64,000 bases of DNA from a phage (GCA_014685065.1 GCA_014685065.1_4092.2), one strand, 5' to 3'. Positions 27,299 through 45,122 are shown, numbered from the stretch's first letter. The notes: generated from the letters alone by a model not told the origin. Numbers and translations are program-made.

Positions 27299-27951
27299 AT
27301 AGTTCCCCTACCGCGTGGGGATGGTTTCCCCGCAGTATCTGGAGTTAGATTTTTCTGAATCTGGAATCATTATCCCCGTTTTCGCCTGGTATGTCAACCG
27401 TCTGGATGAATAATTTTAAAAAATAATCTAGTACTGAATTTTGGGCGTAACTATGCACCCGGTGGGCTTGAGTCTTTCTCGACTTGATGAAACTATTATA
27501 CAGTACTGAAAAAATAAAGCAATACCCTAAACGCAAAAAGTTTTAATTAATTTGCTTGCCATCCTGGGGCGTACTATGGTACTATATTTCAGTACTGAGA
27601 AAGTGCTATGACCTGCTAAGGTGCGGGAGTGTATCCTTTTTAAATTTACTGAATTTTGGGCGTAATTCCGCACCCCCAGGGGTATCCGCTTTCTCGCGTC
27701 TATGTAGTAATTATACGCTTTTTCGGTGCTGAGTCAATAGCTAAAAACAAAATAATTGAAAATAATTTAACGCGTTTAAACGGCCCGTAAAGCCCTGGTT
27801 AGCTGGTGGCGGTGCAAATGTATAGCTTAGGTGTATTAATGCGTTAGAAAGCGGCTGAGGCCGTTTTATGGTGTATAGTACTGATTCAGTACTGAAAGAT
27901 AGTTCCCCTATATAGAAAGAAAACTATTTTAAAAGTATTTGTAGAAAGTAC

Positions 27952-28010
27952 TTGCAAAGTATTGGGAAAGGTGTAGAATGTTTTACATCGAGACGGGGGA
28001 TACGCTCCCG
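27952..28010 (+). promoter_or_regulatory. early promoter cassette: TTGCAA-N16-TAGAAT, TACATCG start region, leader hairpin CGGGGGATACGCTCCCG
   Basis: read directly. Confidence 0.55.
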
Positions 28011-28036
28011 ACTCACTTTTAAAAGAGATTAAAACG

Positions 28037-28399
28037 ATGGCGACTCAAATCAATACTATCATGCTTAACCTGGTTTCTTTCCGTGAAGAGATGAAAGATC
28101 TTCCCGCTGAGACTGTACGGATTCACATTGCAGCTTATCGGGAATTGATTGCAATGCTGCCGCTTAAGCGTGAACAGTACGCCGCTACTGCAATGCTGGA
28201 CGCAATGATACATAAGATGATCCAGACTGATTTAACGATGGCTTATCAGTACATGGGCGAAATGTTTGCAGTGTATAGCAAGCCAGTACCAGGAATGGAA
28301 AGTACAGAAGTATTGCACGGCTTAAACTTAAAACAAGATGCATGGGATAATATGCCTCGTTTCCTGGTATGGGCTGACAGCGGCAAGATTTACGAATAA
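28037..28399 (+). CDS. hypothetical protein
   Basis: ORF track; promoter cassette upstream. Confidence 0.6.
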   Translation: MATQINTIMLNLVSFREEMKDLPAETVRIHIAAYRELIAMLPLKREQYAATAMLDAMIHKMIQTDLTMAYQYMGEMFAVYSKPVPGMESTEVLHGLNLKQDAWDNMPRFLVWADSGKIYE

Positions 28400-28413
28400 G
28401 TTTAATAAAGTAC

Positions 28414-28473
28414 TTGCAAACTAAGTTTAAAAGCGTATAATGTTTTACATCAGGTGGGGAATAGTTCCCCACT
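28414..28473 (+). promoter_or_regulatory. early promoter cassette (TTGCAA 28414, TATAAT 28436) + 5' hairpin GTGGGGAATAGTTCCCCAC
   Basis: read directly. Confidence 0.6.
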
Positions 28474-28492
28474 ATATAAGAGGATTAAAAAA

Positions 28493-28732
28493 ATGGCTAA
28501 ATCAAAAATGTTCTTAGGTCACAAAAACAAAACTCAATGGAATGTAAGCCTTTGGATTAATAACGACGAATCATTATACCGGTTGGCCCAGGACTTTATT
28601 GCCGCTAACACTAATCGTAATGATGCGGCCCGTCATATGATGCTATTTTTAGAACAGACTGGACAAGATAAAACACCGGACGGCTTTAAGTATAGCACTA
28701 CTGCGATCCGTGCGGCGATGGTTGGAATGTAA
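28493..28732 (+). CDS. hypothetical protein
   Basis: ATG at 28493 after SD AGAGGA downstream of hairpin. Confidence 0.55.
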   Translation: MAKSKMFLGHKNKTQWNVSLWINNDESLYRLAQDFIAANTNRNDAARHMMLFLEQTGQDKTPDGFKYSTTAIRAAMVGM

Positions 28733-28814
28733 GAGAATAGATTAAAAGTACTATTGCACGGTGATAGTACTTTATAATAGATTTCTTTTATACAACAACG
28801 ATAGGGGTAACAGC

Positions 28815-29081
28815 ATGAATATTATATACTTTGCAACGCGTGAACTTGCTCGGATTGCCGCACGCCAGGACGGGGCGACGTTTAAAGATATGGGCGTACA
28901 ATCTGAACGTGGTAAACGTTGGGCCGTAGTAAAGCAAAGTACAGCCCGATCAATTCAGTACTGGCTATCTGCTTTAAAGCGTCCTGATAGTGTATCGCGT
29001 CGCGTGGTAGAAATAAAGCACGACCGCAAGGGCAACCGCGTTACTGTGTACAGTACTAAAAAGATTGCAGTACTTGAATAA
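28815..29081 (+). CDS. hypothetical protein, paralog of 40786..41181
   Basis: shared FATRE.AR..AR..G.TFKDMG..RWAV and HDRKGNRVTVYS. Confidence 0.55.
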   Translation: MNIIYFATRELARIAARQDGATFKDMGVQSERGKRWAVVKQSTARSIQYWLSALKRPDSVSRRVVEIKHDRKGNRVTVYSTKKIAVLE

Positions 29082-29203
29082 AAGTACTTGACAGTTATCC
29101 GGCTTAGTGAGATAATACTTACAAGCCGGACACAAGGCGATAGCCCATAGGGTGCGGGAGTGTATCTATAGGAAAGTACTAAAAACTATTTTCAAAAAAG
29201 TAC

Positions 29204-29349
29204 TTGCAAACTATGTTTAAAGGCGTATAATGTTTTACATCAGGACGGGGAATGAAATAAGTAACTCCCTGTTAAGTAGTCCAGGAGTAAGACTTACGAA
29301 AAACTCCCCTGATAAAATAGTTTGACAAAGATTTATAAAAGCGTATAAT
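29204..29349 (+). promoter_or_regulatory. duplicated long leader module with two tandem promoters (TTGCAA 29204/TATAAT 29226; TTGACA 29322/TATAAT 29344) flanking a conserved ~80-nt segment
   Basis: near-identical copy at 39531-39700. Confidence 0.5.
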
Positions 29350-29381
29350 ACTTACATCAACTAATGAATGAGGGTTACAAA

Positions 29382-29993
29382 ATGAAAACTATCACTACTA
29401 CTACTTTTGTTATGGCTTTTTCTGAACTGAACGCAGAACAACAAACGGCGGCTATCGAACTGGTTCGGGATCGGGAACGTGCAAGTGAGGATAATTTCTT
29501 TGCTGAGTCAGTACTGGAATACTATAAAGAAACAGTACTGCCAGAATACGGCATAGATGAAGCTGAATTGCAATACAGTGGTTTTTGGTCGCAAGGTGAC
29601 GGTGCATCAATCAGTACTGACCACGTTGACGCTGAGAAGTTTTTACGCAAGGTTAAGGCGTTAACTAAGTATCGCACTATCCGTCACCTGTTGAACGAAG
29701 ATGATTTAGAAATGAGTGTAGAACGTTCCCAATCGCGTTATGCACACGAAAACACGGTAGGCGGTTGCGTTGATACTCGCTACACTGATTTAACTGTAAA
29801 ACAGGCTGCATTAGCTGAGGATCTGGAAAACTTACTGACTGATACTATCCGAGAATTATCTTGTAAGCTGTACCGTGATTTAGAAAATGCTTATGAAGAC
29901 CAGTTTACTACTGAAAACATTGTAGCACTGATTGAGGGTAACGAATATCAATTTAATGTTATCGATGGTGTAGTAGAATCTATCGCATATTAA
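29382..29993 (+). CDS. hypothetical protein (203 aa)
   Basis: ATG at 29382 after SD GAGGG. Confidence 0.6.
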   Translation: MKTITTTTFVMAFSELNAEQQTAAIELVRDRERASEDNFFAESVLEYYKETVLPEYGIDEAELQYSGFWSQGDGASISTDHVDAEKFLRKVKALTKYRTIRHLLNEDDLEMSVERSQSRYAHENTVGGCVDTRYTDLTVKQAALAEDLENLLTDTIRELSCKLYRDLENAYEDQFTTENIVALIEGNEYQFNVIDGVVESIAY

Positions 29994-30010
29994 TTCAGTA
30001 CTGAATCACT

Positions 30011-30030
30011 GGCGGGGAATGGTTCCCGCC
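30011..30030 (+). promoter_or_regulatory. 5'-leader hairpin GGCGGGGAATGGTTCCCGCC
   Basis: hairpin-family member; no clean -10 found upstream. Confidence 0.4.
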
Positions 30031-30051
30031 TATATCCCAGGAGTAAGAGAA

Positions 30052-30288
30052 ATGATCGAACAAATCAAAACTACAACGCCAAACGTAACGGGTACAGTAT
30101 CACACTTCATTGGTGACGATTCGCGGGGCGTTCCTTATTGTGCAGTACATGTAAACCAAAATGGCGACTACTGGCTAACGGTTTACGGTTCTTATTCTTT
30201 CGGGCGTAGTGCACACCAAAAGATCCTGGATAAAGTACAGCCAACGGGTAAAAATATCACCGCTGAGATGTTTTATAAAAAGCACTAA
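30052..30288 (+). CDS. hypothetical protein
   Basis: ATG at 30052 after SD AGGAG. Confidence 0.55.
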   Translation: MIEQIKTTTPNVTGTVSHFIGDDSRGVPYCAVHVNQNGDYWLTVYGSYSFGRSAHQKILDKVQPTGKNITAEMFYKKH

Positions 30289-30295
30289 AAAGTAC

Positions 30296-30354
30296 TTGCA
30301 AAGTAATTAGATTAACGTATAATACTTTATATCGAGAGCGGGAATAGTTCCCGC
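30296..30354 (+). promoter_or_regulatory. early promoter cassette + hairpin GCGGGAATAGTTCCCGC
   Basis: TTGCAA 30296, TATAAT 30318. Confidence 0.6.
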
Positions 30355-30373
30355 CTTTAATGAGGATTATCTA

Positions 30374-30658
30374 ATGAGCAAAGTAATTAATAGTAAAGTA
30401 CTAACTAAAACTTTATCTATAACTGAGTGCACCGATGGTTTTTGGCTGTACGATGAAACGCGTGGCATGAATTTAGCTATGCAGGAGAAAACTGCTGATG
30501 CGGCATATCTTAAAGCACTGGAATACTACCAGAAGCGTTTAAAGGAAGTAGAAAACGATTATAATAACCTGAAAGCGAAAGTAGATCATTTTGTCGGTCA
30601 ATTCGTTGACGATGACGAGGACGGGCACTACTGCGACCGTTGCGGATCTTACAATTGA
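30374..30658 (+). CDS. hypothetical protein
   Basis: ORF track; SD GAGGA. Confidence 0.6.
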   Translation: MSKVINSKVLTKTLSITECTDGFWLYDETRGMNLAMQEKTADAAYLKALEYYQKRLKEVENDYNNLKAKVDHFVGQFVDDDEDGHYCDRCGSYN

Positions 30659-30675
30659 GTACTGAGGATTATCTA

Positions 30676-30879
30676 ATGAGTGATTTAATTGAACGTATCA
30701 AAGAGCTTGAAGAAAAAGAATTGCAGTTGATCGGGTTACGGAATAAAGTATTCCATGATTTAGGTGGCTTCATTAATGCCTGGGATAGTGGCGATCCTGA
30801 TGCGTTACCTGCTAACCGCCAGGCGATGATCAATGATGTGCGTGGTGTCTTTGATTATGTTTTAAAGCAATTAAATTAA
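30676..30879 (+). CDS. hypothetical protein
   Basis: same GAGGATTATCTAATG start context as 30374. Confidence 0.55.
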   Translation: MSDLIERIKELEEKELQLIGLRNKVFHDLGGFINAWDSGDPDALPANRQAMINDVRGVFDYVLKQLN

Positions 30880-30887
30880 AAAAGTAC

Positions 30888-30947
30888 TTGCAATTAGTTT
30901 TTAGTACTGTATAATAGTTTACATCAAGGGGGGAAATGGTTCTCCCC
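30888..30947 (+). promoter_or_regulatory. early promoter cassette + hairpin
   Basis: TTGCAA 30888, TATAAT 30910, GGGGGAAATGGTTCTCCCC. Confidence 0.6.
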
Positions 30948-30966
30948 ACTAATAAGGAGTTTTACA

Positions 30967-31188
30967 ATGGCTAATATCACTACTCTTTCCCAGCTTGAAG
31001 CACTGGTTAAATCTATGCGGGCACATGTTGACAGTATCGGCGTAGAAGATCCGGCTGTATGTTTTTGTGACGAAATAAATGATGATACGCTCGTCATTGC
31101 AGAAGTACAAGACGTTTCTAACTATTCATCGCGTTACACTTGCGGAGTATCAAAGAAAGGTGATTTCTGTTTATATCTTACTAAGTAA
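30967..31188 (+). CDS. hypothetical protein
   Basis: ORF track; SD AAGGAG. Confidence 0.6.
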   Translation: MANITTLSQLEALVKSMRAHVDSIGVEDPAVCFCDEINDDTLVIAEVQDVSNYSSRYTCGVSKKGDFCLYLTK

Positions 31189-31356
31189 TACAGAGGGGAT
31201 CAATTGATCCCCTTTATATTTTTTGTACTGAATCATTTAATAGACGGATCTATGCACCCTGTGGGTTAGTGACTATCTCGTCTTTATGTAAGTATTATGC
31301 CAGTACTGGATGCAGTTGTCAAGACTTTTTTTTCAAATACTTTTATATCAAAGTAC

Positions 31357-31384
31357 TTGATAATAGTTTTTAAATGCGTATAAT
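31357..31384 (+). promoter_or_regulatory. sigma70-like promoter TTGATA-N16-TATAAT
   Basis: read directly. Confidence 0.5.
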
Positions 31385-31434
31385 GTTTTACATCTAATCG
31401 GGAATACTCCCTAGTACTAACAAAGGATATACAA

Positions 31435-31734
31435 ATGAAAACTGCAATCATCGCCCTGGCTTTATCTGTTTCCTCTTTCGCTGTTAACGCTTCCGTTGAT
31501 GTACCGAAAGAAAAATTCATTCAGTGCACTGTTGCAATGACTAACGAGGAAACGGCTGAGATCGTTACCAAATCCCTGGAACTGGCCCCTGCAATGTTTG
31601 CTAATGGCCCGTACCATGAAGAAGATGATCAGGGTAGCACGACCATCTATTACGATGCAAAAAGTAAACGCGGTTCTGTCACTGTAATGGATACAGAGAA
31701 AGTTACATTCACTGGCGTAATTAATTGTTTATAA
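31435..31734 (+). CDS. secreted/periplasmic protein (N-terminal signal peptide)
   Basis: MKTAIIALALSVSSFAVNASVD signal-like N-terminus. Confidence 0.6.
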   Translation: MKTAIIALALSVSSFAVNASVDVPKEKFIQCTVAMTNEETAEIVTKSLELAPAMFANGPYHEEDDQGSTTIYYDAKSKRGSVTVMDTEKVTFTGVINCL

Positions 31735-31751
31735 TATAGTACTGAATCACT

Positions 31752-31779
31752 AGCCCACTATAAGCAGTGGGCTTTTTTG
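31752..31779 (+). terminator. intrinsic terminator AGCCCACT-N6-AGTGGGCT + T6
   Basis: read directly. Confidence 0.7.
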
Positions 31780-31832
31780 TTTTTGTAGTATTGTAGTACT
31801 GGTATACTTTGAAAATAGTTTTAAAAAAGTAG

Positions 31833-31860
31833 TTGACATTACCAGGGAAAAGCGTAGAAT
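31833..31860 (+). promoter_or_regulatory. sigma70-like promoter TTGACA-N16-TAGAAT with ~110-nt leader
   Basis: read directly. Confidence 0.5.
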
Positions 31861-31974
31861 GTATTACATCAAGACGGGGAACATTAAGTAGACCGCCAGT
31901 AAGTCGAATGAAAAACTGGACACGTCAATAAAACTTTGATAAACTAACTTAAACTTTAATTGAGGATTTATAAA

Positions 31975-32457
31975 ATGGCTAATGTAAAATCATTTCTGAA
32001 AGCACTGATTTCTAACGATACTGTTATTGCTGCTGAATTGCTGGCTGACCTGGATAATGATACCATGAAAGCAGTACGCAACAATTTTAACATTGCTTAC
32101 AGTGAAGCGAAAGAACTACAAGCCAAAAAGGTAGCAGAACTGGAAGAACAGAAAAAAGCCCGTGAAGCAGAACTGCAAGCAACAATAGAAAGTATTCAGG
32201 CGGCGGTGTCTGGTTTAGATCTGGAAGTGGTTATTGAAATGGCACATAAAGCCCTGGCGGTTAAGTACGGTGAAGATAAGCCGGAATCTAAGCCTAAAAA
32301 ATGGATTCAAGAACGTGTTACGGTTGTCCTTGATAACGGGGAAGAACATTTGATTCCTGTACGCGGTAACTGCATTGCGGTAGTACTAGATGCAATCAAA
32401 GAAAGCGGTATGACTCGCGAGGAATGGATCGAAGCTCACCGCAAAGTTGAAGCATAA
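31975..32457 (+). CDS. hypothetical protein (alanine/glutamate-rich, likely helical)
   Basis: ATG at 31975 after SD GAGGA. Confidence 0.6.
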   Translation: MANVKSFLKALISNDTVIAAELLADLDNDTMKAVRNNFNIAYSEAKELQAKKVAELEEQKKAREAELQATIESIQAAVSGLDLEVVIEMAHKALAVKYGEDKPESKPKKWIQERVTVVLDNGEEHLIPVRGNCIAVVLDAIKESGMTREEWIEAHRKVEA

Positions 32458-32478
32458 CAATTAAAGTACTGAATCACT

Positions 32479-32505
32479 AGCCCACTTATACAGTGGGCTT
32501 TTTTG
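32479..32505 (+). terminator. intrinsic terminator AGCCCACT-N6-AGTGGGCT + T-run
   Basis: read directly. Confidence 0.7.
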
Positions 32506-32657
32506 TGTCTATAGTATTCCATGCCGTCAGCACCTCATAGAATCGATTCTAACGCATTAAACTGATTATCTGATGCATCGCCCTAGCTGGTGGAGTTAAG
32601 GCCGTTAGAATGCGATTGAGAGTGTTAAAAGTATTTTACAAAAAGTAATAAAAAGTA

Positions 32658-32685
32658 CTTGCACGATTCAGAGATTAGCGTATAA
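32658..32685 (+). promoter_or_regulatory. sigma70-like promoter TTGCAC-N16-TATAAT
   Basis: read directly. Confidence 0.5.
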
Positions 32686-32731
32686 TGTTTTACATCAAGG
32701 CGAAACACCTTAACTAACTGAGGATATAAAG

Positions 32732-32884
32732 ATGAATACTTATGAACTGGATTGTTTCACTATGCAAGTAATGTTAGTATGCAGTAAAAAAGAATGGTCA
32801 TCAAAGGAATTTAAAGCAGTTATTGCATGTTCAAAAAAAGGTAAGTCTATTATTGAAACGGCAGCTATCGTAGATAGTCTTTAA
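32732..32884 (+). CDS. small hypothetical protein (50 aa)
   Basis: hand-translated; SD GAGGA. Confidence 0.4.
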   Translation: MNTYELDCFTMQVMLVCSKKEWSSKEFKAVIACSKKGKSIIETAAIVDSL

Positions 32885-32892
32885 AAAATAGT

Positions 32893-32921
32893 TTGACAAT
32901 AGTTTTAAGTACTGACATAAT
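32893..32921 (+). promoter_or_regulatory. sigma70-like promoter TTGACA-N17-CATAAT
   Basis: read directly. Confidence 0.5.
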
Positions 32922-32954
32922 ACATACATCAACTACTGAATAGGAATCAAAACA

Positions 32955-33182
32955 ATGGCTATCGTAATCACTCGCGTATCTGGTACTACTGGCAATTCTT
33001 CTACTGTTGCTGTAATTACTAATAAGAAAGGTGCGGAATTACATTTTGCAATGAATACCTGGGCGGTGAATGAGTTCGGTCAGTGGGCTAGTGTAGAATA
33101 CATTGAAACCTATCAAGTGCCAACCATTAGCTTAACGGATCTCGGCGTAGATCGTATCTTATGCCTGGATGAATTAAACTAA
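32955..33182 (+). CDS. hypothetical protein
   Basis: ORF track. Confidence 0.55.
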   Translation: MAIVITRVSGTTGNSSTVAVITNKKGAELHFAMNTWAVNEFGQWASVEYIETYQVPTISLTDLGVDRILCLDELN

Positions 33183-33189
33183 AAAGTAC

Positions 33190-33249
33190 TTGCAAAGTAA
33201 ATCGGATAAAGTATAATACATTACATCAAGGGGAGAAATGATTCTCCCC
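33190..33249 (+). promoter_or_regulatory. early promoter cassette + hairpin GGGGAGAAATGATTCTCCCC
   Basis: TTGCAA 33190, TATAAT 33212. Confidence 0.6.
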
Positions 33250-33267
33250 ACTAAGAGGAAACTAAAA

Positions 33268-33411: not shown

Positions 33412-33420
33412 AATTATTAT

Positions 33421-33705: not shown

Positions 33706-33710
33706 AATTA

Positions 33711-35356: not shown

Positions 35357-35362
35357 AAAAAG

Positions 35363-35394
35363 TGGTTGACTTCGGTCAGCCATTTTGCTATTAT
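35363..35394 (+). terminator. terminator/promoter dual element, copy 4 (variant)
   Basis: TGGTTGACTTCGGTCAGCCA + TTTTG + TATTAT. Confidence 0.55.
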
Positions 35395-35498
35395 ATATTC
35401 ATTGAGAGATAGCTCACTAGCCCACAGGGTGCAGGAATGTATCTATTGTATAATGATTGAGTACTGAAAACTATTTTAAAGTATTTGATAAAAAGTAC

Positions 35499-38963: not shown

Positions 38964-38980
38964 TAGAAGGAGTACAGCTT

Positions 38981-39073: not shown

Positions 39074-39240
39074 TCCAGGTGGAATTATCAGTACTGAAAG
39101 ATCTGTTTTATCGGTTAGGCACTACTGGCGAATACCCTAAAGGGGATACTGCTAAACTATACATTGCATTGGATGTATGGCAACGTAATGAACTGGCTAA
39201 CGCCTGGCGTAAAGGTAAATCAGAGGGGATTGCAGCATGA
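39070..39240 (+). CDS. small hypothetical protein (56 aa)
   Basis: ATGA overlap; SD AGGAG. Confidence 0.4.
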   Translation: MIQVELSVLKDLFYRLGTTGEYPKGDTAKLYIALDVWQRNELANAWRKGKSEGIAA

Positions 39241-39386
39241 AAGAATTCTTATTCGAAGTAGTGTTCCAGGGCGTAGGAAGTAACCAACTGATTCGATCAA
39301 GTGGTTACAATGTTAACCAGGCATGGAATAACATTAAACAAATGTACCCGAACGCTATCACATATCGCAACCCAAAACAAGTTTAA
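39237..39386 (+). CDS. small hypothetical protein (49 aa)
   Basis: ATGA overlap. Confidence 0.35.
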   Translation: MKEFLFEVVFQGVGSNQLIRSSGYNVNQAWNNIKQMYPNAITYRNPKQV

Positions 39387-39400
39387 AAAGAATTAAAAAA

Positions 39401-39433
39401 GGGATTGACTCCGGTCAGTCCCTTTGCTATTAT
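39401..39433 (+). terminator. terminator/promoter dual element, copy 5 (GGGATTGAC-TCCG-GTCAGTCCC variant)
   Basis: read directly. Confidence 0.55.
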
Positions 39434-39530
39434 ATACGCATAGAAACAAATCAGCCCACAGGGTGCATAAATGTATCTATTATATGCTGGTGGCTAGTAC
39501 TATCAAGTACTGAAAACTATTTTTAAAAAG

Positions 39531-39700
39531 TACTTGCAAAGTATCACGATAAGCGTATAATGTTTTACATCAGGACGGGGAACGAAACAAGTAACTCCCC
39601 GTTAAGTAGTCCAGGAGTAAGACATACGAAAACCTCCCCTGATAAAATAGTTTGACAATACCAAGTAAACGAGTATAATACTTACATCAACCACAAAGAG
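39531..39700 (+). promoter_or_regulatory. second copy of the long tandem-promoter leader module seen at 29204-29349
   Basis: near-identical ~170 bp. Confidence 0.5.
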
Positions 39701-39709
39701 GAATACAAA

Positions 39710-39910
39710 ATGAAACATTTTACTTTCGGTGTAGTAGGCTTTACAGTATCCAGCGGCGTTTATAAATCAGAACGCGGTGCTAAAAATGCAGCAAGTCGGG
39801 CGTATGGTTCACAGCGTGACTTACAGGTCGGTTATATTAGTAACATTAATAACATGTTTATTCCTGTTTCACAGCGTAAAGCGGGTAACATGAAATGGGA
39901 AACAATTTGA
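39710..39910 (+). CDS. hypothetical protein
   Basis: ORF track; SD AAGAGGAA. Confidence 0.55.
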   Translation: MKHFTFGVVGFTVSSGVYKSERGAKNAASRAYGSQRDLQVGYISNINNMFIPVSQRKAGNMKWETI

Positions 39911-39918
39911 TAAAATAG

Positions 39919-39978
39919 TTTGACAATAGTTTTTAGTACTGTATAATAGTTTACATCAAGTGGGGAATAGTTCCCCAC
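39919..39978 (+). promoter_or_regulatory. early promoter cassette + hairpin GTGGGGAATAGTTCCCCAC
   Basis: TTGACA 39919, TATAAT 39942. Confidence 0.65.
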
Positions 39979-39999
39979 CTAACAAAGAGAGAAATTAAA

Positions 40000-40275
40000 A
40001 TGCGGATTCTACTGACAGCTAACGAAATCGAGCAAGTACTGACTACTAACCTGGAAGACTGGAAACGTGATGCAGATATCCAGGCGGTGCAATGGCTCAA
40101 TGATAAGTTAACGCCGGATGATTTAAGTAAGATTGTAGATCCACAATTCTATGAAGATATTCACGACACGGCTTTAAGCGTCGAGGATGTACTTGATAAG
40201 CACTACATTGATATTGATTTGCAGGTTTACGGTCGTAAAAACTTTATCACTATTCACGACATTTATAATAATTAA
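40000..40275 (+). CDS. hypothetical protein
   Basis: ORF track. Confidence 0.55.
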   Translation: MRILLTANEIEQVLTTNLEDWKRDADIQAVQWLNDKLTPDDLSKIVDPQFYEDIHDTALSVEDVLDKHYIDIDLQVYGRKNFITIHDIYNN

Positions 40276-40278
40276 GTA

Positions 40279-40338
40279 TTGACAAAGTATCTTAGTACTG
40301 TATAATAGTTTACATCAAGGCAGGGGAATGGTTCCCCT
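40279..40338 (+). promoter_or_regulatory. early promoter cassette + hairpin
   Basis: TTGACA 40279, TATAAT 40301, AGGGGAATGGTTCCCCT. Confidence 0.65.
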
Positions 40339-40362
40339 CCTAACTAAAAGAGAGAAATTAAA

Positions 40363-40686
40363 ATGACTATGATCCTTACCCAGAAAGTAGAAATGAAAAT
40401 TGTAACTTCCTTTGACATTAAAGTTAATCGGTGGACTGATAGCCACGGCAATACTTACCACTCATGCTACGTGTCTGCATTGATTGGTGACCGCTGGGAA
40501 GACCTGGGACATGAAACCTTTACTTACGGTTACGGTACACAAGGCGAATACACGGGCTTGGAGATCATTAAAGAAACTGTAATAGGTTTCAACCCGAAAG
40601 AGAAAGTACTACACAGAATTGAGGATGAGATCAACAAAGAAATTACAGTTCGTTACTACGATGTAAAACGTAAGAAAGACATGTAA
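40363..40686 (+). CDS. hypothetical protein
   Basis: ORF track. Confidence 0.55.
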   Translation: MTMILTQKVEMKIVTSFDIKVNRWTDSHGNTYHSCYVSALIGDRWEDLGHETFTYGYGTQGEYTGLEIIKETVIGFNPKEKVLHRIEDEINKEITVRYYDVKRKKDM

Positions 40687-40700
40687 TAGAATCCATTTAA

Positions 40701-40737
40701 AGTACTATTTGACATTGCCCAGATAGTACTTTATAAT
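40701..40737 (+). promoter_or_regulatory. class II promoter with AGTACT inverted repeat
   Basis: TTGACA 40709, N17, TATAAT 40732. Confidence 0.55.
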
Positions 40738-40785
40738 AGACTCTAACTTGTAGTACTAATTAACTTAACTAATAGGATGTACACC

Positions 40786-41181
40786 ATGATTACTAAATTC
40801 TTCGCTACCCGTGAACAAGCTCGCATCGTTGCTCGTGAAGAAGGTGAAACATTTAAAGACATGGGCAAAGATGCACCGAAAGGACAACGCTGGGCGGTAC
40901 AGTTCAAAGAGATCTCTGATATTGTGAATTCACCTGAGCCTGTACTTACTGAAGCAGAACTGAAGAAAGCTCAAGAACTGGCTGAAGTACTGAACGCTCA
41001 AGATGACTTCTTGGAAGGTTCTGATATTGAAGTTACAGTTAACGCAAATGCATGGACTCACGCGGATCACCTGGCAAACCTTAAGCGTCCAAGTGAACTG
41101 ATTCGTAACCAGAAAGAGATCCGTCATGACCGTAAAGGAAACCGTGTAACAGTATACAGTAAACGCCGCCAGGTTATCTAA
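40786..41181 (+). CDS. hypothetical protein, paralog of 28815..29081
   Basis: shared N- and C-terminal motifs. Confidence 0.55.
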   Translation: MITKFFATREQARIVAREEGETFKDMGKDAPKGQRWAVQFKEISDIVNSPEPVLTEAELKKAQELAEVLNAQDDFLEGSDIEVTVNANAWTHADHLANLKRPSELIRNQKEIRHDRKGNRVTVYSKRRQVI

Positions 41182-41204
41182 TAACTTTGCAGTACTAACA
41201 ACAC

Positions 41205-41229
41205 GGCGGGAATAGTTCCCGCCTTTTTT
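41205..41229 (+). terminator. intrinsic terminator: hairpin GGCGGGAATAGTTCCCGCC (same family as 5' hairpins) + T6
   Basis: read directly. Confidence 0.65.
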
Positions 41230-41244
41230 ATAGGATAAACTAAA

Positions 41245-41499
41245 ATGATGAAGGTACAACTATCTAAAGATAATATCTTGCGGGTACACTATAAAGCACC
41301 ACAGAGAATCATCACAAAGGCCGTACAGCTTGCTAATGAGTTTATTAATGGTAGTCTATTACCCAGGAAGTTAAGCAACGGGAAACTACGTGTTATCGAT
41401 GTAGACACTAACAATAGAATAGTAATTGAGAGTACTGGAAAAATTAATCTATATGAACACCAACAATACAATAAAAAAATAAAACTAATATCACGTTGA
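41245..41499 (+). CDS. hypothetical protein
   Basis: ORF track. Confidence 0.5.
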   Translation: MMKVQLSKDNILRVHYKAPQRIITKAVQLANEFINGSLLPRKLSNGKLRVIDVDTNNRIVIESTGKINLYEHQQYNKKIKLISR

Positions 41500-41555
41500 C
41501 AGTACTCAATTGTTTTAGTATTATGTATCTATACCAACACAGAGAGAGAAACAAA

Positions 41556-41774
41556 ATGAAATTATCTAAAATCGAAAAGAAAACTATTGATGAAGCAGTG
41601 AAGCACGGTTATACCTTTCGTAATGATTCACACTTCACCAGTTTTCAACAGGGAAACCGTACCATCAAAAAACTCATTGATAAAGGTTTACTCACTAAGG
41701 TTGATAACGGGAACGGTGTAGAATATCAACCGACAGAAGACGCATTATCACTAAAGAAATATTCTATTATCTAA
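41556..41774 (+). CDS. hypothetical protein
   Basis: ATG at 41556 after a TTGACAGTACTCAAWTGTTTTAGTA leader repeat. Confidence 0.5.
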   Translation: MKLSKIEKKTIDEAVKHGYTFRNDSHFTSFQQGNRTIKKLIDKGLLTKVDNGNGVEYQPTEDALSLKKYSII

Positions 41775-41831
41775 TTGACAGTACTCAAATGTTTTAGTAC
41801 TATGTACGCATACCAACACGGGGAAAACAAA

Positions 41832-42074
41832 ATGATTACTTTAGAAAAACGTATCAAAGAGACTACAACGCTGGTGGAACTGTTAACCGTTCTTAAATGC
41901 CGGGTAACTCCATTCAGTACACCGGACTTTATCAACATGGTGGACGTTAACGGTCGCTATCGTATTGCGGTCGAACAAGGTACGGCAAAAGTATTCAGTA
42001 CTAAAAATACGCGTGAAGTATTCCACGCAGTAAGTACGAAAAAAGTAGTTGCCATTGATAGTAAAGTACTGTAA
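41832..42074 (+). CDS. hypothetical protein
   Basis: ATG at 41832; same upstream repeat as 41556 gene. Confidence 0.5.
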   Translation: MITLEKRIKETTTLVELLTVLKCRVTPFSTPDFINMVDVNGRYRIAVEQGTAKVFSTKNTREVFHAVSTKKVVAIDSKVL

Positions 42075-42105
42075 TATAGTTTCATTAACTCAAGGAGTCA
42101 ACACA

Positions 42106-42690
42106 ATGCGTAACTATACTAAATTCATCCGTTCACTTCATGCAATGGAAACCAACAAAGAGATCCTTTCAGCTTGTCGGTTAGCTGGACTGGAGATCGT
42201 CGGTGCGGGTTCTTCCCGTATTGTATTCGCTTTAAATGATCGGTTAGTGATTAAGGTCGCGAATTGTGATGCGGGTGTAGAACAAAATGAAACTGAATGT
42301 AAGGTATGGAATTTTTTAGATTATGACCGTCCGCACCTTAAACAGTTCTTTGCCAAGGTGCATATGCATTTATGCGATCCTGATAATCTGTTTATTGTTA
42401 TGGATCGTTTGAGTACTGCAAGCAAAGGCAGTGTAAAGCACGTAACCGCATGTAATGAGTTAAAGTACAATATTAAACGTAACACTATTGAACGCCATCA
42501 CCATTTCGCTGATGCTCTCAATCACGTTGATGATACATTATCCACACTAACGATAAGAGATATCAGAAAACAGAATATCGGCCAGGATCGCAACGGCTTG
42601 ATTAAAGTACTTGATTACGGTTTAACCCGCAATATCTGGAATCAGTACTATAAAAAACGTGATGTTAACGCGATAACTATAACACGATAA
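42106..42690 (+). CDS. protein-kinase-like protein
   Basis: Gly loop VGAGSSRIV, VIKVA lysine, RDIRKQNIG catalytic-loop-like, VLDYG DFG-like. Confidence 0.45.
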   Translation: MRNYTKFIRSLHAMETNKEILSACRLAGLEIVGAGSSRIVFALNDRLVIKVANCDAGVEQNETECKVWNFLDYDRPHLKQFFAKVHMHLCDPDNLFIVMDRLSTASKGSVKHVTACNELKYNIKRNTIERHHHFADALNHVDDTLSTLTIRDIRKQNIGQDRNGLIKVLDYGLTRNIWNQYYKKRDVNAITITR

Positions 42691-42704
42691 AAAAGATTAA
42701 AAAA

Positions 42705-42737
42705 GGGATTGACTCCAGTCAGTCCCTTTGCTATTAT
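42705..42737 (+). terminator. terminator/promoter dual element, copy 6
   Basis: GGGATTGAC-TCCA-GTCAGTCCC + TATTAT. Confidence 0.55.
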
Positions 42738-42831
42738 ATATTCATTGAGAGATAACTCACTGACCCATAGGGTGCGGAAGTGTATCTATTATATAAGTAT
42801 TCAGTACTGAAAACTATTTGATAAAAAGTAC

Positions 42832-42891
42832 TTGCAAACTATCTTAATGAGCGTATAATGTTTTATATCGAGAGGGGGAAATGGTTCTCCC
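42832..42891 (+). promoter_or_regulatory. early promoter cassette + hairpin
   Basis: TTGCAA 42832, TATAAT 42854. Confidence 0.6.
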
Positions 42892-42914
42892 TGGTACTAA
42901 AAGGAATCAAAACG

Positions 42915-43136
42915 ATGGCTACTATGACCTGCGTTCACGCTTCAAATCTTCTGAATGATGCAGCATTTAAAGCAGGTGAAGAATATCAATGCTATCGGGA
43001 TGAAAATAAAAAAGTTTTCGTCGTTGATGCTAACGGTTTCCATATTGAATTGCAATCCGGCTTCACTGGTTTAAATGGTAAATCAGTATGGGGCGTTAAT
43101 GATGATAATGGTCTTTATCACTTTATCCGTAATTAA
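42915..43136 (+). CDS. hypothetical protein
   Basis: ATG after SD AAAGGAA. Confidence 0.55.
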   Translation: MATMTCVHASNLLNDAAFKAGEEYQCYRDENKKVFVVDANGFHIELQSGFTGLNGKSVWGVNDDNGLYHFIRN

Positions 43137-43139
43137 GTA

Positions 43140-43199
43140 TTGACAAAGTATATCAGTACTGTATAATAGTTTACATCAAGGGGAGAATAGTTCTCCCCA
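43140..43199 (+). promoter_or_regulatory. early promoter cassette + hairpin
   Basis: TTGACA 43140, TATAAT 43162, GGGGAGAATAGTTCTCCCC. Confidence 0.65.
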
Positions 43200-43220
43200 C
43201 CAATAAAAGGAAACAAAATT

Positions 43221-43493
43221 ATGTCTAGCTACTCCGCTACTATGATCATTAAAGATATGAACGGTAATCCTACTTCTGCTGGTGGATCATTTGGAAACAT
43301 TAACTTAGATGGTCGGTTATCAATTGAATCAGCCATCAATGCAGCGAAAGAAGTTTTTAAGAATGAATGCACTGTAAGTAAGCTGGATTATATGGGATTC
43401 GCTATCGAGAAAACTAATCGTTTTGTGAACTACAAAAATCCACTGATGATTGATACTAACCTGAAAGCTAACGAAGTGGAATACTTATTATGA
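43221..43493 (+). CDS. hypothetical protein
   Basis: ORF track. Confidence 0.55.
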   Translation: MSSYSATMIIKDMNGNPTSAGGSFGNINLDGRLSIESAINAAKEVFKNECTVSKLDYMGFAIEKTNRFVNYKNPLMIDTNLKANEVEYLL

Positions 43494-43681
43494 CAGTTGA
43501 AGAAGTTAAAAAAGTACTGGCAGTACTACGCTATCATAATCATTGTAAGGTGAAGAATGATCCTGATTATGTTGATTCATCCCTGGAGGAAGACACCTTA
43601 AACGCGATAAGCTATATGCAAACATTAGCAAAGCGTATGACCGAAAAGAATAGGCCGGACTATATCGGAAATAAAATTTAA
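43490..43681 (+). CDS. hypothetical protein
   Basis: ATGA overlap. Confidence 0.5.
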   Translation: MTVEEVKKVLAVLRYHNHCKVKNDPDYVDSSLEEDTLNAISYMQTLAKRMTEKNRPDYIGNKI

Positions 43682-43687
43682 AAAGTA

Positions 43688-43748
43688 CTTGCATTGTAGT
43701 TAGATTAACGTATAATGTTTTATATCGAGAGGGGGAAATGGTTTCCCC
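43688..43748 (+). promoter_or_regulatory. early promoter cassette + hairpin
   Basis: TTGCAT 43688, TATAAT 43710, AGGGGGAAATGGTTTCCCCT. Confidence 0.6.
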
Positions 43749-43768
43749 TCAAGTCCAGGAGATACACC

Positions 43769-44032
43769 ATGAACACTATCGAAATCACTATCAATGCACA
43801 CGTATACGACAACGTAGTACTGCAAACTACTATGACCGCTAATGATACCAGTACTTTGCGGAATATCGTTATTAGTTCAGTATGTGCCGCTATCGGTGAT
43901 GTTGCCCTTGAAAATGCAAAACACGTCAACGATGCCTTTACGATGTGCAAACGTGATAACTCAAAACATATCATCTGCGAAGGTTACGGCGGTGTAGAAT
44001 ACAATGTTTATATGAAAAAAGTACTTGCATAA
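43769..44032 (+). CDS. hypothetical protein
   Basis: ATG after SD AGGAG. Confidence 0.55.
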   Translation: MNTIEITINAHVYDNVVLQTTMTANDTSTLRNIVISSVCAAIGDVALENAKHVNDAFTMCKRDNSKHIICEGYGGVEYNVYMKKVLA

Positions 44033-44081
44033 TAACTAAAACAAAGTATAATGTTTTGCATAGGGGGAGATATCCTCCCCC
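44025..44081 (+). promoter_or_regulatory. early promoter cassette + hairpin GGGGGAGATATCCTCCCCC (altered loop, pairing kept)
   Basis: TTGCAT 44025, TATAAT 44047. Confidence 0.6.
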
Positions 44082-44100
44082 ACTAATAAGGAGTACTAAA

Positions 44101-44325
44101 ATGGCTAACTTTGATGAACTGATGCGGGAAGTAGCTACCCTGGCAGAAGAGAAGAAATCATTCGATTCTATATATAACACCGCTTACAGTGATTCAGTAC
44201 TGGCATGTACTCAGGATCAAAAAGATGAACTGATCGCCACCTATCATGAAGCATGGAAGTATTACCGCCAATGGGAGAAAGAAGAAAGCGAGTCTACCAT
44301 CAACGGCATCAATAATCTAATCTAA
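44101..44325 (+). CDS. hypothetical protein
   Basis: ATG after SD AAGGAG. Confidence 0.55.
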   Translation: MANFDELMREVATLAEEKKSFDSIYNTAYSDSVLACTQDQKDELIATYHEAWKYYRQWEKEESESTINGINNLI

Positions 44326-44399
44326 AGTTTTATTTCAGTACTATTGACAATGCGTGATAGTACTGATGTGATAACTTTACTAACTAAAGGGGAAACATA

Positions 44400-44657
44400 A
44401 TGGAACAGTTCACACAATATCGGGTAAATCCTCAAGCTATGGCCTACGTAGAAGACCATAAAACGTTACCAGTACTAACACCAATTAAAGGCCATATCTA
44501 TCGTGCTATGCAGTGGAATAACGCCTATAATGGCTATAAAGCGGTATCCGCTGCAATGTACTTAGGGGATGGCGAATGGTTTGATCCAAATAATCCTGGT
44601 GCACTCGATAGTACTGAAAAAATGACATGGGCCGACTATATCGAAGATATCTCATAA
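44400..44657 (+). CDS. hypothetical protein
   Basis: ORF track. Confidence 0.55.
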   Translation: MEQFTQYRVNPQAMAYVEDHKTLPVLTPIKGHIYRAMQWNNAYNGYKAVSAAMYLGDGEWFDPNNPGALDSTEKMTWADYIEDIS

Positions 44658-44664
44658 AAACTAT

Positions 44665-44726
44665 TTGACAGTACTACAAGATAATGTATAATGTTTTACA
44701 TAGAGCGGGGGAATAGTTCTCCCGCA
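44665..44726 (+). promoter_or_regulatory. early promoter cassette + hairpin
   Basis: TTGACA 44665, TATAAT 44687, GCGGGGGAATAGTTCTCCCGC. Confidence 0.6.
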
Positions 44727-44745
44727 CCTTTAGGAGTAAAACATT

Positions 44746-44946
44746 ATGTCAATCGCTAACGAATTGGTTGCAGTACTGAATGAAGCAAAAGCCAACTGCA
44801 TCGATGTACAGATAAAAGAGCTTGGCAATGGCTTGATCGGCTGTACTTGTTCCGTGCAAACGGCTACCGATTATCGGGAAGTGGAATCACTCGAATCACT
44901 GGTACGGTATATTAAAATCCTGGTAGAAGATTGGAGAATCATCTAA
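44746..44946 (+). CDS. hypothetical protein
   Basis: ORF track; SD AGGAG. Confidence 0.55.
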   Translation: MSIANELVAVLNEAKANCIDVQIKELGNGLIGCTCSVQTATDYREVESLESLVRYIKILVEDWRII

Positions 44947-44965
44947 CAAAAAAGAATAAAAAAAA

Positions 44966-44999
44966 GGGATTGACTCCGGTCAGTCCCTTTGCTATTATA
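44966..44999 (+). terminator. terminator/promoter dual element, copy 7
   Basis: GGGATTGAC-TCCG-GTCAGTCCC + TATTAT. Confidence 0.55.
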
Positions 45000-45122
45000 T
45001 ACGCATAGACAAAAACTAGCCCACAGGGTGCAGAGAAGTATCTGTAAGATAGTTAATAACGGTGAGTAACTATCTGCTGGTGGATGTAATTCCAGTACTC
45101 AAAACTATTTCAAAAAAAGTAT

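What the first reader, a model, noticed from the sequence alone, without database searches (positions are those of the whole stretch)
27600..45020. Recurrent TAGCCCACAGGGTGC element of unknown function
Variants of (C/T)ACTAGCCCA(C/T)AGGGTGC(A/G)GGAATGTATCT occur at about 29140, 35415, 37095, 39455, 42755 and 45010, usually just after a dual terminator/promoter element and before a class I promoter. A related CACTAGCCCAC is also the 5' arm of the terminators at 31752 and 32479. It could be a degenerate terminator, a recombination site, or a protein-binding site.
Basis: seen in the sequence. Interest (0 to 1): 0.35.

Follow-up and report, generated by a model that had tools for sequence, protein, structure and literature searches.

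The report
Conserved 5' RNA motif, jumbo-phage early transcripts
The repeated TAGCCCACAGGGTGC sequence is real and is the start of the RNA made from a set of strong early promoters in the terminal repeat of a giant E. coli phage; it folds into two small hairpins, is kept in all related giant phages of enterobacteria, matches no Rfam family or searched paper, and its function is unknown.

Summary
The window is an Asteriusvirus-type jumbo coliphage (121Q/PBECO4 group). The core motif occurs 8 times (0.42 expected), and a covariance model adds a degenerate face-to-face pair at 27587-27705. All copies lie at 27.4-45.05 kb, inside the ~20-kb direct terminal repeat. Each copy starts 6-8 nt after the -10 box of a sigma-70 promoter, always in the direction of transcription, so it is the first ~50 nt of a transcript. 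It is not a terminator remnant. It has two parts. The first is a 5' hairpin (P1) with a covarying stem and a purine-rich loop. The second is an invariant hairpin, RCCC-(3-4 nt loop)-GGGU, followed by GC and a pyrimidine-rich segment. In a 50,697-record phage collection the element is found only in 68 Rak2-like jumbo phages (at least 310 kb) of Enterobacterales. In phage CBB all 12 copies lie in its terminal repeat. After the element comes either a second promoter plus a gene, a terminator ~20-50 nt on (giving a ~95-nt small RNA), or a facing copy. There is no Rfam match and no paper. My best reading is a new structured early RNA module, part leader and part small RNA, probably bound by a protein. 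The function is inferred, not shown.

The parts
27439..27490 (-). Element copy. Its promoter is TTGCTT (27522-27517) and TATAAT (27500-27495), with the start near 27488. P1 is AGUC-GAGAAA-GACU and the core is AGCCCACCGGGUGC. A further leftward promoter (27397-27369) follows.
   Evidence: (48.5 bits)
27654..27705 (-). Degenerate element copy. Its promoter is TTGACT-16-TATAAT (27737-27710). P1 is CGC-GAGAAA-GCG. The core is ACCC-CUGG-GGGUGC, with a 4-nt loop. It faces the + strand copy at 27587.
   Evidence: (22.1 bits, E 1e-3)
27587..27640 (+). Possible degenerate partner of the face-to-face pair. P1 is AGUAC-UGAGAAA-GUGCU. The core is CCU-GCUA-AGGUGC, with a U-A pair in place of C-G, followed by a U-run.
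   Evidence: (13 bits, E 0.6: weak on its own). It is credible only through its context and because the same face-to-face pairs occur in relatives.
29119..29171 (+). Element copy after the promoter TTGACA-17-GATAAT (29088-29116). P1 is GCC-GGACACAA-GGC and the core is AGCCCAUAGGGUGC.
   Evidence: 35 bits
31185..31289 (-). Stand-alone small-RNA-like unit. The promoter is TTGACA-17-CATAAT (31322-31294) and the start is near 31287. The element spans 31289-31238. It is followed by AGUAC and then the hairpin GGGGAUCAAUUGAUCCCC (31212-31195) plus a U-rich tail, which would give about 100 nt of RNA. No ORF lies in this direction.
   Evidence: (49.9 bits). The same unit with the same terminator occurs in Klebsiella phage RaK2 (L007 2717-2769, -).
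35359..35448 (+). Cassette made of a terminator hairpin (35359-35386) that holds the promoter TTGACT-17-TATTAT (35366-35394), then the element (35397-35448). P1 is UGAG-AGAUAG-CUCA.
   Evidence: 62.7 bits
37044..37128 (+). Promoter TTGACA-17-CATAAT with an extended -10 (37044-37072), then the element (37077-37128). P1 is GACG-AGAA-CGUC. This cassette is absent from phage G17.
   Evidence: (37.8 bits)
39398..39482 (+). Cassette made of a terminator hairpin (39398-39425) with the promoter (39405-39433), then the element (39436-39482). This copy has no P1 stem; its 5' end is AUAGAAACAAAUC. A Chi site follows at 39486.
   Evidence: (38 bits)
42702..42791 (+). Cassette made of a terminator hairpin (42702-42729) with the promoter (42709-42737), then the element (42740-42791). 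The core is GACCCAUAGGGUGC.
   Evidence: 66.9 bits
44963..45047 (+). Cassette made of a terminator hairpin (44963-44990) with the promoter (44970-44998), then the element (45007-45047). This copy has no P1 stem. A 9-bp hairpin and a Chi site (45076) follow.
   Evidence: (35.1 bits)

Best explanation
The motif is the transcribed 5' end (about the first 50 nt) of a dedicated class of host sigma-70 early promoters. These promoters lie in the phage's ~20-kb direct terminal repeat.

The RNA starts at the A of a conserved CA and has three parts:
- P1, a hairpin 1-6 nt from the 5' end. Its stem varies by compensatory changes and its loop is purine-rich (AGAUAA, GAGAAA, AGAACAA, GCGAAA).
- After a 1-3 nt linker, P2, an invariant small hairpin RCCC-(AYN or 4 nt)-GGGU followed by GC.
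- A purine-rich hexamer and a pyrimidine-rich segment (YRYYY). This segment could pair with GGGUG instead of CCC (P3), so P2 and P3 exclude each other.

In the solo units the RNA runs about 20-50 nt further to an intrinsic terminator. That would give a non-coding RNA of about 95 nt. In the cassette units the element is the leader of a transcript that reads across a second promoter into the next small early gene.

Proposed mechanism (inferred): P1 shields the 5' end from 5'-end-dependent decay. The invariant P2 hairpin is a recognition site for a protein, either host or phage. The many strongly expressed copies would then act, straight after DNA entry, as a multi-copy binding or recruiting RNA.

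Shown here: position, promoter, orientation, covariation, and conservation across genera. Not shown: that the RNA is made, where it ends, what binds it, and what it does.
For: Promoter association: 96% of 74 distinct copies have a sigma-70 match of at least 9/12, and 81% at least 10/12. The -10 box ends 2-4 nt before the model start in 67 of the 74 copies. At random positions the figures are 9% and 2.5%. Orientation is always that of the promoter.

Structure:
- P1: all 4 pairs show changes on both sides. There are 119 compensatory cells against 40 +/- 4.6 in shuffles (0 of 500), and 90.5% of cells are paired against at most 54% when the partner is slid. An independent hairpin scan finds a stem in 43 of 55 copies, against a mean of 25 and a maximum of 35 in shuffles.
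- P2: 98.6% paired. The closing pair is A-U or G-U in equal numbers. Loop length and sequence vary (ACA, AUA, ACC, ACU, AUU, UCAA, UUUA, CAGA, UAGA, CUGG) while CCC and GGG stay fixed. One copy has CCU/AGG.
- P3: the register gives 97% pairing against at most 72% in other registers, with only transition-type, wobble-compatible changes.

Conservation: 68 of 50,697 phage records carry the element. All are jumbo phages of at least 310 kb from Escherichia, Klebsiella, Salmonella, Erwinia, Yersinia, Pectobacterium, Cronobacter and Serratia. Copies are syntenic in G17, JP4 and 121Q. In CBB, a different genus, all 12 copies lie inside the 22,456-bp terminal repeat and none in the next 25 kb. In this window all copies lie inside the repeat, which I place at about 26357-46451 (repeat verified for fEgEco12 in PMC13070987).

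Small-RNA units: at least 10 of 78 copies are followed within 18-50 nt by a GC-rich hairpin plus a U-rich tail, with no ORF.

Specificity control: 100 unrelated loci that hold the exact 14-mer give only 3 model hits, all at or below 28 bits. True copies score mostly 30-70 bits, though the weakest accepted ones (24-29 bits in relatives, 22 and 13 bits at the degenerate window pair) overlap this range and rest on their promoter and P1 context.
Against: There are no transcript data, so starts, ends and abundance are all predicted.

The core never varies on both sides. P2 and P3 therefore cannot be told apart by covariation, and the pairing of the core is supported only by one-sided changes, loop-length changes and one or two compensatory cases.

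Alignment A4 was fitted to the model, which favours the structure.

About a quarter of copies have no P1 stem, so P1 is dispensable.

No binding protein was identified. Ten proteins of the repeat, nine of them with homologues in CBB's repeat, include no recognisable RNA-binding domain.

Most copies have no terminator of their own, so 'small RNA' applies to a minority.
Confidence: 0.6

Rival explanations
1. A cis-acting antitermination or anti-pausing RNA, working like HK022 put or like a lambda nut site. The nascent 5' hairpins stay bound to the RNA polymerase that made them, alone or with a phage factor. They carry it through the many intrinsic terminators of the early region.
For: The element starts right at the transcription start, as putL does, and like put it is made of two stem-loops (PMC9378689). 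The region is dense in intrinsic terminators. Some P1 loops are purine-rich pentaloop-like sequences (GAGAA), reminiscent of boxB. The core is invariant in sequence, as expected for a contact with polymerase or a factor.
Against: The element is about 45-50 nt against about 70 nt for put, and has no sequence similarity to it. There is no boxA. Four copies sit immediately after a terminator, which an upstream antiterminated polymerase would ignore. At least 10 copies are followed by a terminator within 50 nt and nothing to express beyond it. No N-like protein was found.
Confidence: 0.15
2. An operator on double-stranded DNA. A phage repressor binds ARCCCAYAGGGTGC just downstream of these promoters and shuts them off after the immediate-early phase.
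For: The core is invariant and partly palindromic (CCC N3 GGG). It lies at +13 to +35 of strong promoters, a classical roadblock position. Dispersed asymmetric operators are known, for example the phage P1 C1 operators (own knowledge).
Against: The spacing between CCC and GGG varies between 3 and 4 bp. The distance to the -10 box varies by up to 8 nt. The flanking P1 stem covaries, which double-stranded DNA does not need. The variable positions downstream change only in ways that keep RNA wobble pairing. No copy was found in any other position relative to a promoter.
Confidence: 0.1
3. The motif is only a passenger in mobile or recombining promoter-terminator cassettes, like the PeSL elements of T4-type phages. 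It recurs because the cassettes copy themselves by recombination, not because the motif itself does anything.
For: The cassettes at 35344-35584, 39376-39582 and 42688-42921 are 73-84% identical to each other. Several breaks of homology with G17 fall at cassettes: 29090/29175, the 37040-37347 insertion, and a module swap at 30014-31393. PeSLs are stem-loop plus early-promoter units at indel boundaries (PMC4122927).
Against: The 14-nt core and its distance from the start are kept across genera that share only about 23-29% nucleotide identity, while the promoter type, the P1 sequence and the flanks differ (PMC13070987). Copies behind plain promoters and in antisense solo units are not PeSL-like. 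Passive repeats would decay evenly rather than keep pairing.
Confidence: 0.1
4. A degenerate or unusual terminator.
For: The terminators at 31752 and 32479 share CACTAGCCCAC with the element. In the face-to-face copies the P3 hairpin is followed by a U-run: window 27587(+), and L006, L016 and L102.
Against: Typical copies have AUWRUWUA after P3, not a U-tract. The P3 stems are mostly G-U pairs, and P2 is favoured in the fold (0.64 against 0.12). The copies lie after a promoter rather than after a gene. The element model does not hit the true terminators.
Confidence: 0.03

Closest known systems
PeSL (promoter-early stem-loop) cassettes of T4-type phages (Arbiol 2010; Comeau 2014, PMC4122927)
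   Same: Both are composite terminator stem-loop plus sigma-70 early promoter units. Both are repeated between small early ORFs in a plastic region and are found at indel and module-swap boundaries.
   Different: PeSLs run straight into a Shine-Dalgarno sequence and a start codon. Here a ~50-nt conserved structured leader and usually a second promoter intervene. The leader also occurs behind ordinary promoters and in solo antisense units. Its core is conserved across genera, which PeSL sequences are not.
HK022 put RNA (putL)
   Same: Both are promoter-proximal and begin within a few nt of the transcription start. Both are made of two stem-loops and lie in phage early operons transcribed by the host polymerase.
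   Different: The element is shorter (about 45-50 nt against about 70 nt) and has no sequence or detailed structural similarity. It has 9-12 copies per repeat rather than 2. Several copies are followed directly by a terminator. Activity has not been tested.
Lambda nut sites (boxA + boxB)
   Same: Both combine a small hairpin that has a purine-rich loop with a sequence-conserved segment, in the leader of early transcripts.
   Different: The order is reversed, with the hairpin first. There is no boxA consensus. The conserved segment is itself a hairpin. No N-like protein was identified.
Terminator-ended bacterial and phage small RNAs, and the non-coding RNAs of the terminal repeat of Pseudomonas jumbo phage PA5oct (PMC7318152)
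   Same: The solo units have their own promoter, a structured 5' domain, an AU-rich stretch and an intrinsic terminator, about 95 nt in all, with no ORF. PA5oct also makes abundant non-coding RNAs from its terminal repeat.
   Different: The conserved part is a hairpin rather than a single-stranded seed. Most copies lack a terminator of their own. There is no sequence relation to the PA5oct RNAs, which are 236-451 nt, and no Rfam match.

Membership tests
PeSL cassette | A terminator-like stem-loop immediately upstream of, or overlapping, a sigma-70 early promoter | tested here: met
   Met for 4 of 10 window copies (35359, 39398, 42702, 44963). Not met for the other six.
PeSL cassette | The promoter is followed directly by a Shine-Dalgarno sequence and the start codon of the downstream ORF | tested here: not met
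   The element and usually a second promoter lie between the promoter and the next ORF.
PeSL cassette | Located at indel or replacement boundaries between close relatives | tested here: inconclusive
   Some breakpoints against G17 fall at cassettes (29090/29175; 37040-37347). However, nearly all intergenic regions here carry promoters, so specificity is not shown.
HK022 put RNA | Two stem-loops of about 70 nt in the nascent RNA just after the early promoter | tested here: inconclusive
   There are two small hairpins starting at +2 to +7, but the total is about 45-50 nt and the architecture differs (PMC9378689).
HK022 put RNA | Factor-independent read-through of downstream terminators, dependent on the beta' zinc-binding domain | not testable with these tools
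   This needs transcription assays.
Lambda-type nut site | A boxA consensus (CGCUCUUA) together with a boxB hairpin and an N-family protein | tested here: not met
   No boxA-like sequence appears in the aligned copies. Pfam finds no N-like domain among the 10 proteins of the repeat that were scanned.
Intrinsic terminator | A G+C-rich hairpin followed directly by a U-tract, placed at the end of a transcription unit | tested here: not met
   Most copies have no U-tract. They are placed after a promoter. The terminator scan does not call them.
Any Rfam 15 family | A match to a curated covariance model | tested here: not met
   There are no gathering-score hits in the window. At E up to 5 over 27000-46500 no hit overlaps an element copy.
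Stand-alone small RNA gene | Own promoter, no ORF, own intrinsic terminator within about 50-300 nt | tested here: met
   Met for the window unit 31289-31185(-) and for at least 9 copies in relatives. Not met for the cassette copies. Transcription itself is not tested.

The most novel reading that the evidence does not exclude
The element defines a new class of phage RNA. It would be produced in about ten copies from the first DNA to enter the cell and would act on the host machinery in one of two ways. Either it stays bound to the RNA polymerase that made it (a second, unrelated put-type element), or it acts as a multi-copy decoy that titrates a host RNA-binding or defence protein during takeover by Rak2-like jumbo phages.
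Probability: 0.2. Interest if true: 0.75.

Novelty: new member of a known kind. Interest (0 to 1): 0.5.

Why it matters
Rak2-like jumbo phages (121Q, PBECO4, RaK2, K64-1, GAP32, CBB and others) are being developed for therapy, yet their early programme is almost unannotated. The terminal repeat is a string of 'hypothetical proteins'.

A structured RNA motif that marks 9-12 early transcription starts per repeat, and is conserved in every member of the clade, gives three things:
- precise predictions of early transcription starts;
- a candidate regulatory RNA that current annotation misses or overwrites with spurious ORFs (for example CBB_7 and several short JP4 ORFs);
- a concrete handle for asking how these phages control or protect their immediate-early RNAs.

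If it proves to be a polymerase-modifying or decoy RNA, it would be a second independent example of a rare mechanism.

Tried and rejected
1. Long-range pairing between the purine-rich 5' end and the pyrimidine-rich 3' segment looked attractive in single folds. Native 5'/3' pairs are no better than permuted ones (-5.14 against -4.93 +/- 0.24 kcal/mol, 934 of 5000 permutations at least as good). Rejected.

2. A pseudoknot between the P1 loop and the 3' segment fits only the AGAUA/UAUCU family. Rejected by inspection.

3. A mini-ORF (AGGGUG acting as a Shine-Dalgarno sequence, plus AUG): the AUG is absent from many copies. Rejected.

4. A CsrA-type GGA site in the P3 loop: by inspection of the aligned copies, GGA is present in fewer than half of them. 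Not general.

5. tRNA, tmRNA or a known RNA family: none found.

6. A host homologue or mimic: no blastn match of a 62-nt element-plus-linker query in 5,426 complete E. coli genomes. Sensitivity for short matches is low.

7. The exact 14-mer in IMG/VR is mostly chance or an unrelated coding sequence. Those loci served as negative controls.

8. A search for a cognate RNA-binding protein among proteins of the terminal repeat found only DksA/TraR and ParE-like domains.

9. A literature search for the sequence and for transcript studies of this phage group found nothing relevant.


Full report
**What the window is.** Megablast of 27000-46000 against 50,697 phage records finds 205 records. The best matches are ~350-380-kb coliphages of the genus Asteriusvirus: JP4 (88.7% identity over 92% of the query), BAU.Micro_ELP-22, BF17, 121Q, G17, phAPEC6 and slurp01 (taxonomy). 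In several records whose ends were determined, the match begins about 635 bp from the left end. The direct terminal repeat (DTR) of fEgEco12 is 20,993 bp and was verified by restriction mapping (PMC13070987). In JP4, whose record carries the repeat in tandem, window 46451 joins back to window 26357. I therefore place the DTR at about 26357-46451 of the window.

**The observation.** TAGCCCACAGGGTGC with up to 3 mismatches occurs 8 times against 0.42 expected. Two more sit on the - strand at 27455 and 31254. A covariance model (R1) run without filters over the whole window recovers these 8 at 35-67 bits. It adds 27654-27705(-) at 22 bits and a weak facing copy 27587-27640(+) at 13 bits. It finds nothing else credible in 64 kb. 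All copies lie in the DTR.

**Position relative to promoters.** An alignment of the copies with their flanks shows that each lies about 20-30 nt after a -10 hexamer. Across 74 distinct copies from this window and relatives, 96% have a sigma-70 match of at least 9/12 and 81% at least 10/12. In 67 of the 74 the -10 ends 2-4 nt before the model start, and 47 have an extended -10 TG. Random positions give 9% and 2.5%. The predicted start is the A of a conserved CA, so the element is the first ~50 nt of a transcript. Four window promoters are built into a terminator hairpin, with TTGACT in the stem and TATTAT in the tail. The others are ordinary promoters.

**Anatomy.** Directly after the start there is a small hairpin, P1. 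Its stem differs from copy to copy (UGAG/CUCA, GACG/CGUC, GGAG/CUCC, ACAAA/UUUGU, GCCA/UGGC, AGCA/UGCU, ACCAC/GUGGU, AGUC/GACU, GGAA/UUCC, ACCG/CGGU and more), while its loop stays purine-rich.
- On the model-based alignment of 89 hits (73 distinct), all four P1 pairs show changes on both sides. There are 119 compensatory cells against 40 +/- 4.6 in shuffles (0 of 500), and 90.5% of cells are paired against at most 54% when the partner is slid. That alignment is fitted to the model.
- An independent scan of the ungapped sequences also finds a stem in 43 of 55 copies, against 25 (maximum 35) in shuffles.
- About a quarter of copies have no stem but keep an A-rich 5' end (AUAGAAACAAAUC).

Then comes the core.
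- RCCC and GGGU can form a 4-bp hairpin (P2). The closing pair is A-U in half the copies and G-U in the other half.
- The loop is ACA, AUA, ACC, ACU or AUU, or four bases (UCAA, UUUA, CAGA, UAGA, CUGG).
- One copy has CCU/AGG. The weak copy at 27587 shows the same CCU...AGG change.
- Six bases after GGGUGC, a segment YRYYY can pair with GGGUG (P3). In register 97% of cells pair, against at most 72% in other registers. The four variable positions show only transitions that keep G-C/G-U or U-A/U-G pairs.
- P2 and P3 exclude each other. Thermodynamic folding prefers P2 (mean pair probability 0.64 against 0.12). Because the core itself does not vary, covariation cannot decide between them.
- A long-range helix between the 5' end and the 3' segment is not supported.

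**RNA or DNA?** Five observations point to RNA. Orientation is strict with respect to transcription. The distance from the -10 is variable while the distance from the 5' end is kept short. P1 covaries. The spacing between the invariant CCC and GGG changes between 3 and 4. The downstream substitutions are wobble-compatible. All five are expected for a structured RNA and are not expected for a protein site on double-stranded DNA. None of this is direct evidence of transcription.

**Distribution.** The exact 14-mer also occurs in IMG/VR contigs whose lengths equal those of RaK2 (345,809), GAP32 (358,663), CBB (378,379) and 121Q (348,532), always in the same promoter context. A 48-nt consensus query finds 68 of 50,697 phage records. 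All are at least 310 kb: Escherichia 33, Klebsiella 10, Salmonella 8, Erwinia 7, Yersinia 4, Pectobacterium 2, Cronobacter 2, Serratia 2. The hits are mostly annotated 'none' or as terminal repeat.
- In CBB (genus Mimasvirus), 12 model hits all lie between 984 and 20,932. That is inside its 22,456-bp repeat and between the annotated genes. None lies in the following 25 kb. Three are face-to-face pairs.
- Within Asteriusvirus the copies are syntenic.
- As a control, 100 unrelated loci that contain the exact 14-mer give only three hits, at or below 28 bits. The weakest accepted copies (24-29 bits in relatives, 22 and 13 bits at the degenerate window pair) fall in this same range and are accepted on their promoter and P1 context.
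- There is no Rfam match even at E up to 5, no tRNA, no match in complete E. coli genomes, and no paper containing the sequence.

**What follows the element.**
- In at least 28 of 78 distinct contexts, including all six + strand window copies, another sigma-70 promoter starts 20-75 nt downstream. It has its own 5' hairpin, ribosome-binding site and gene.
- In at least 10 contexts a G+C-rich hairpin with a U-rich tail follows within 18-50 nt, and there is no ORF in that direction. This predicts a ~95-100-nt RNA. The window example is 31287 to about 31185 on the - strand. RaK2 has the same unit with nearly the same terminator but a different, still paired, P1.
- Some copies face each other about 15-60 nt apart: window 27587/27654, and CBB 984/1049, 3794/3859 and 20816/20881.
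- A conserved AGUACUG follows the element by 10-25 nt in both the cassette and the solo classes.

**Interpretation.** I conclude that the motif is a structured RNA module at the 5' end of immediate-early transcripts from the terminal repeat. In some places it is part of a small non-coding RNA, and in others it is the leader of a read-through transcript.
- P1 has the placement (1-6 unpaired 5' nt) of a protective 5'-terminal stem-loop. This rests on established knowledge of E. coli mRNA decay, not on a test here.
- A stability role does not explain the invariance of P2 and the bases next to it. That invariance suggests recognition by a protein or by RNA polymerase.
- I favour a protein-binding or decoy-type RNA (overall confidence 0.6 that it is a functional RNA module, much less for the specific role).
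- A put/nut-like antitermination role is the main rival (0.15). It fits the position and the terminator-rich setting. It fits poorly with copies placed directly behind a terminator, or directly in front of one.
- A DNA operator (0.1), a purely passive PeSL-like repeat (0.1) and a degenerate terminator (0.03) are less likely, for the reasons given under each.

**Relation to the terminators at 31752 and 32479.** They share the 11-mer CACTAGCCCAC, which is unlikely by chance. But they end genes, have a perfect 3' arm and a T-run, and are not hits of the element model. Whether they derive from an element is open.

**Relation to recombination.** Whole cassettes of about 200 bp are 73-84% identical to each other. 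Some homology breaks against G17 lie at them, including a ~300-bp cassette present here and in 121Q but absent in G17, and a swap of two modules. This resembles PeSL-mediated shuffling (PMC4122927). It concerns the cassette, not the core motif.

**Verdict.** The finding is a real, clade-wide, apparently undescribed RNA motif of unknown function: a new member of the known kind 'phage early leader or small-RNA motif'. It is of moderate interest now, and of higher interest if it proves to act on RNA polymerase or to titrate a host factor.

Noticed in passing
window 26943-45083 (+ strand sites at 26955, 27802, 32586, 36758, 38221, 39486, 41870, 43278, 45076): The recombination hotspot Chi (GCTGGTGG) occurs 14 times in the window against 0.59 expected. 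Nine sites are on the + strand inside the terminal repeat. The few whose context I read (27802, 32586, 39486, 45076) lie between genes, and two of these sit right after element copies. One oppositely oriented site (26943-26950, - strand) lies 5 bp from the first + strand site, about 600 bp from the inferred left genome end. This looks like deliberate protection of the terminal repeat against RecBCD.
   Followed up: partly
whole window, densest at 24-48 kb: The palindrome AGTACT occurs 248 times against about 22 expected from base composition. It sits in promoter spacers (CCAGTACTGGCATAAT), just upstream of -35 boxes (AAAAAGTACTTGCAA) and 10-25 nt after the element (AGUACUG). It may be the site of an unknown DNA- or RNA-binding factor.
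   Followed up: partly
window 29232-29330 and 39562-39660: A second repeated leader of about 90 nt (AUCAGGACGGGGAA...CUCCCCUGAUAAAAUAG) is 96% identical between its two copies. It lies between a TTGCAA-16-TATAAT promoter and the next TTGACA promoter. Its predicted fold is not significantly stable (z = -1.5).
   Followed up: partly
window ~26357 and ~46451: These are the inferred boundaries of the ~20-kb direct terminal repeat, taken from the tandem junction in the JP4 record and from the start of end-determined relatives. The window therefore spans a circularly joined genome end. The leftmost ~1 kb (26357-27400) has no convincing ORF, but three leftward promoters point at the end.
   Followed up: partly
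window 41245-41499 and 37371-37628: Two small early ORFs have recognisable Pfam domains. One is a ParE-like toxin domain (E 3e-10). The other is a DksA/TraR C4 zinc finger (E 1.5e-11), a family known to bind the secondary channel of RNA polymerase.
   Followed up: no
window 30014-31393 and 37040-37347, compared with L001 (phage G17): Two adjacent gene modules are in the opposite order in G17. A ~300-bp promoter-plus-element cassette is present here and in 121Q but absent from G17. This is modular shuffling at promoter cassettes, as described for PeSLs.
   Followed up: partly
window 31748-31780 and 32475-32506: Two near-identical terminators (AGCCCAC-loop-GTGGGCT plus a T-run) share the 11-mer CACTAGCCCAC with the element. 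They give weak sub-threshold Rfam matches to the trp leader (29 and 21 bits, against a gathering score of 41). This reflects a generic terminator shape, not an attenuator.
   Followed up: partly
window 46519-50106: Just beyond the terminal repeat lies a tight array of about 16 + strand ORFs of 66-96 aa, many overlapping by a few bases. It has no promoters or elements between the ORFs. The organisation differs sharply from the promoter-rich repeat.
   Followed up: no
L124 (CBB) 3793-3966; L002 (JP4) several 30-40-aa ORFs, e.g. 8123-8242 and 2645-2764: Some annotated 'hypothetical protein' ORFs in public records overlap, or lie next to, element copies and promoter cassettes, in some cases on the opposite strand. 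They are probably annotation artefacts.
   Followed up: no
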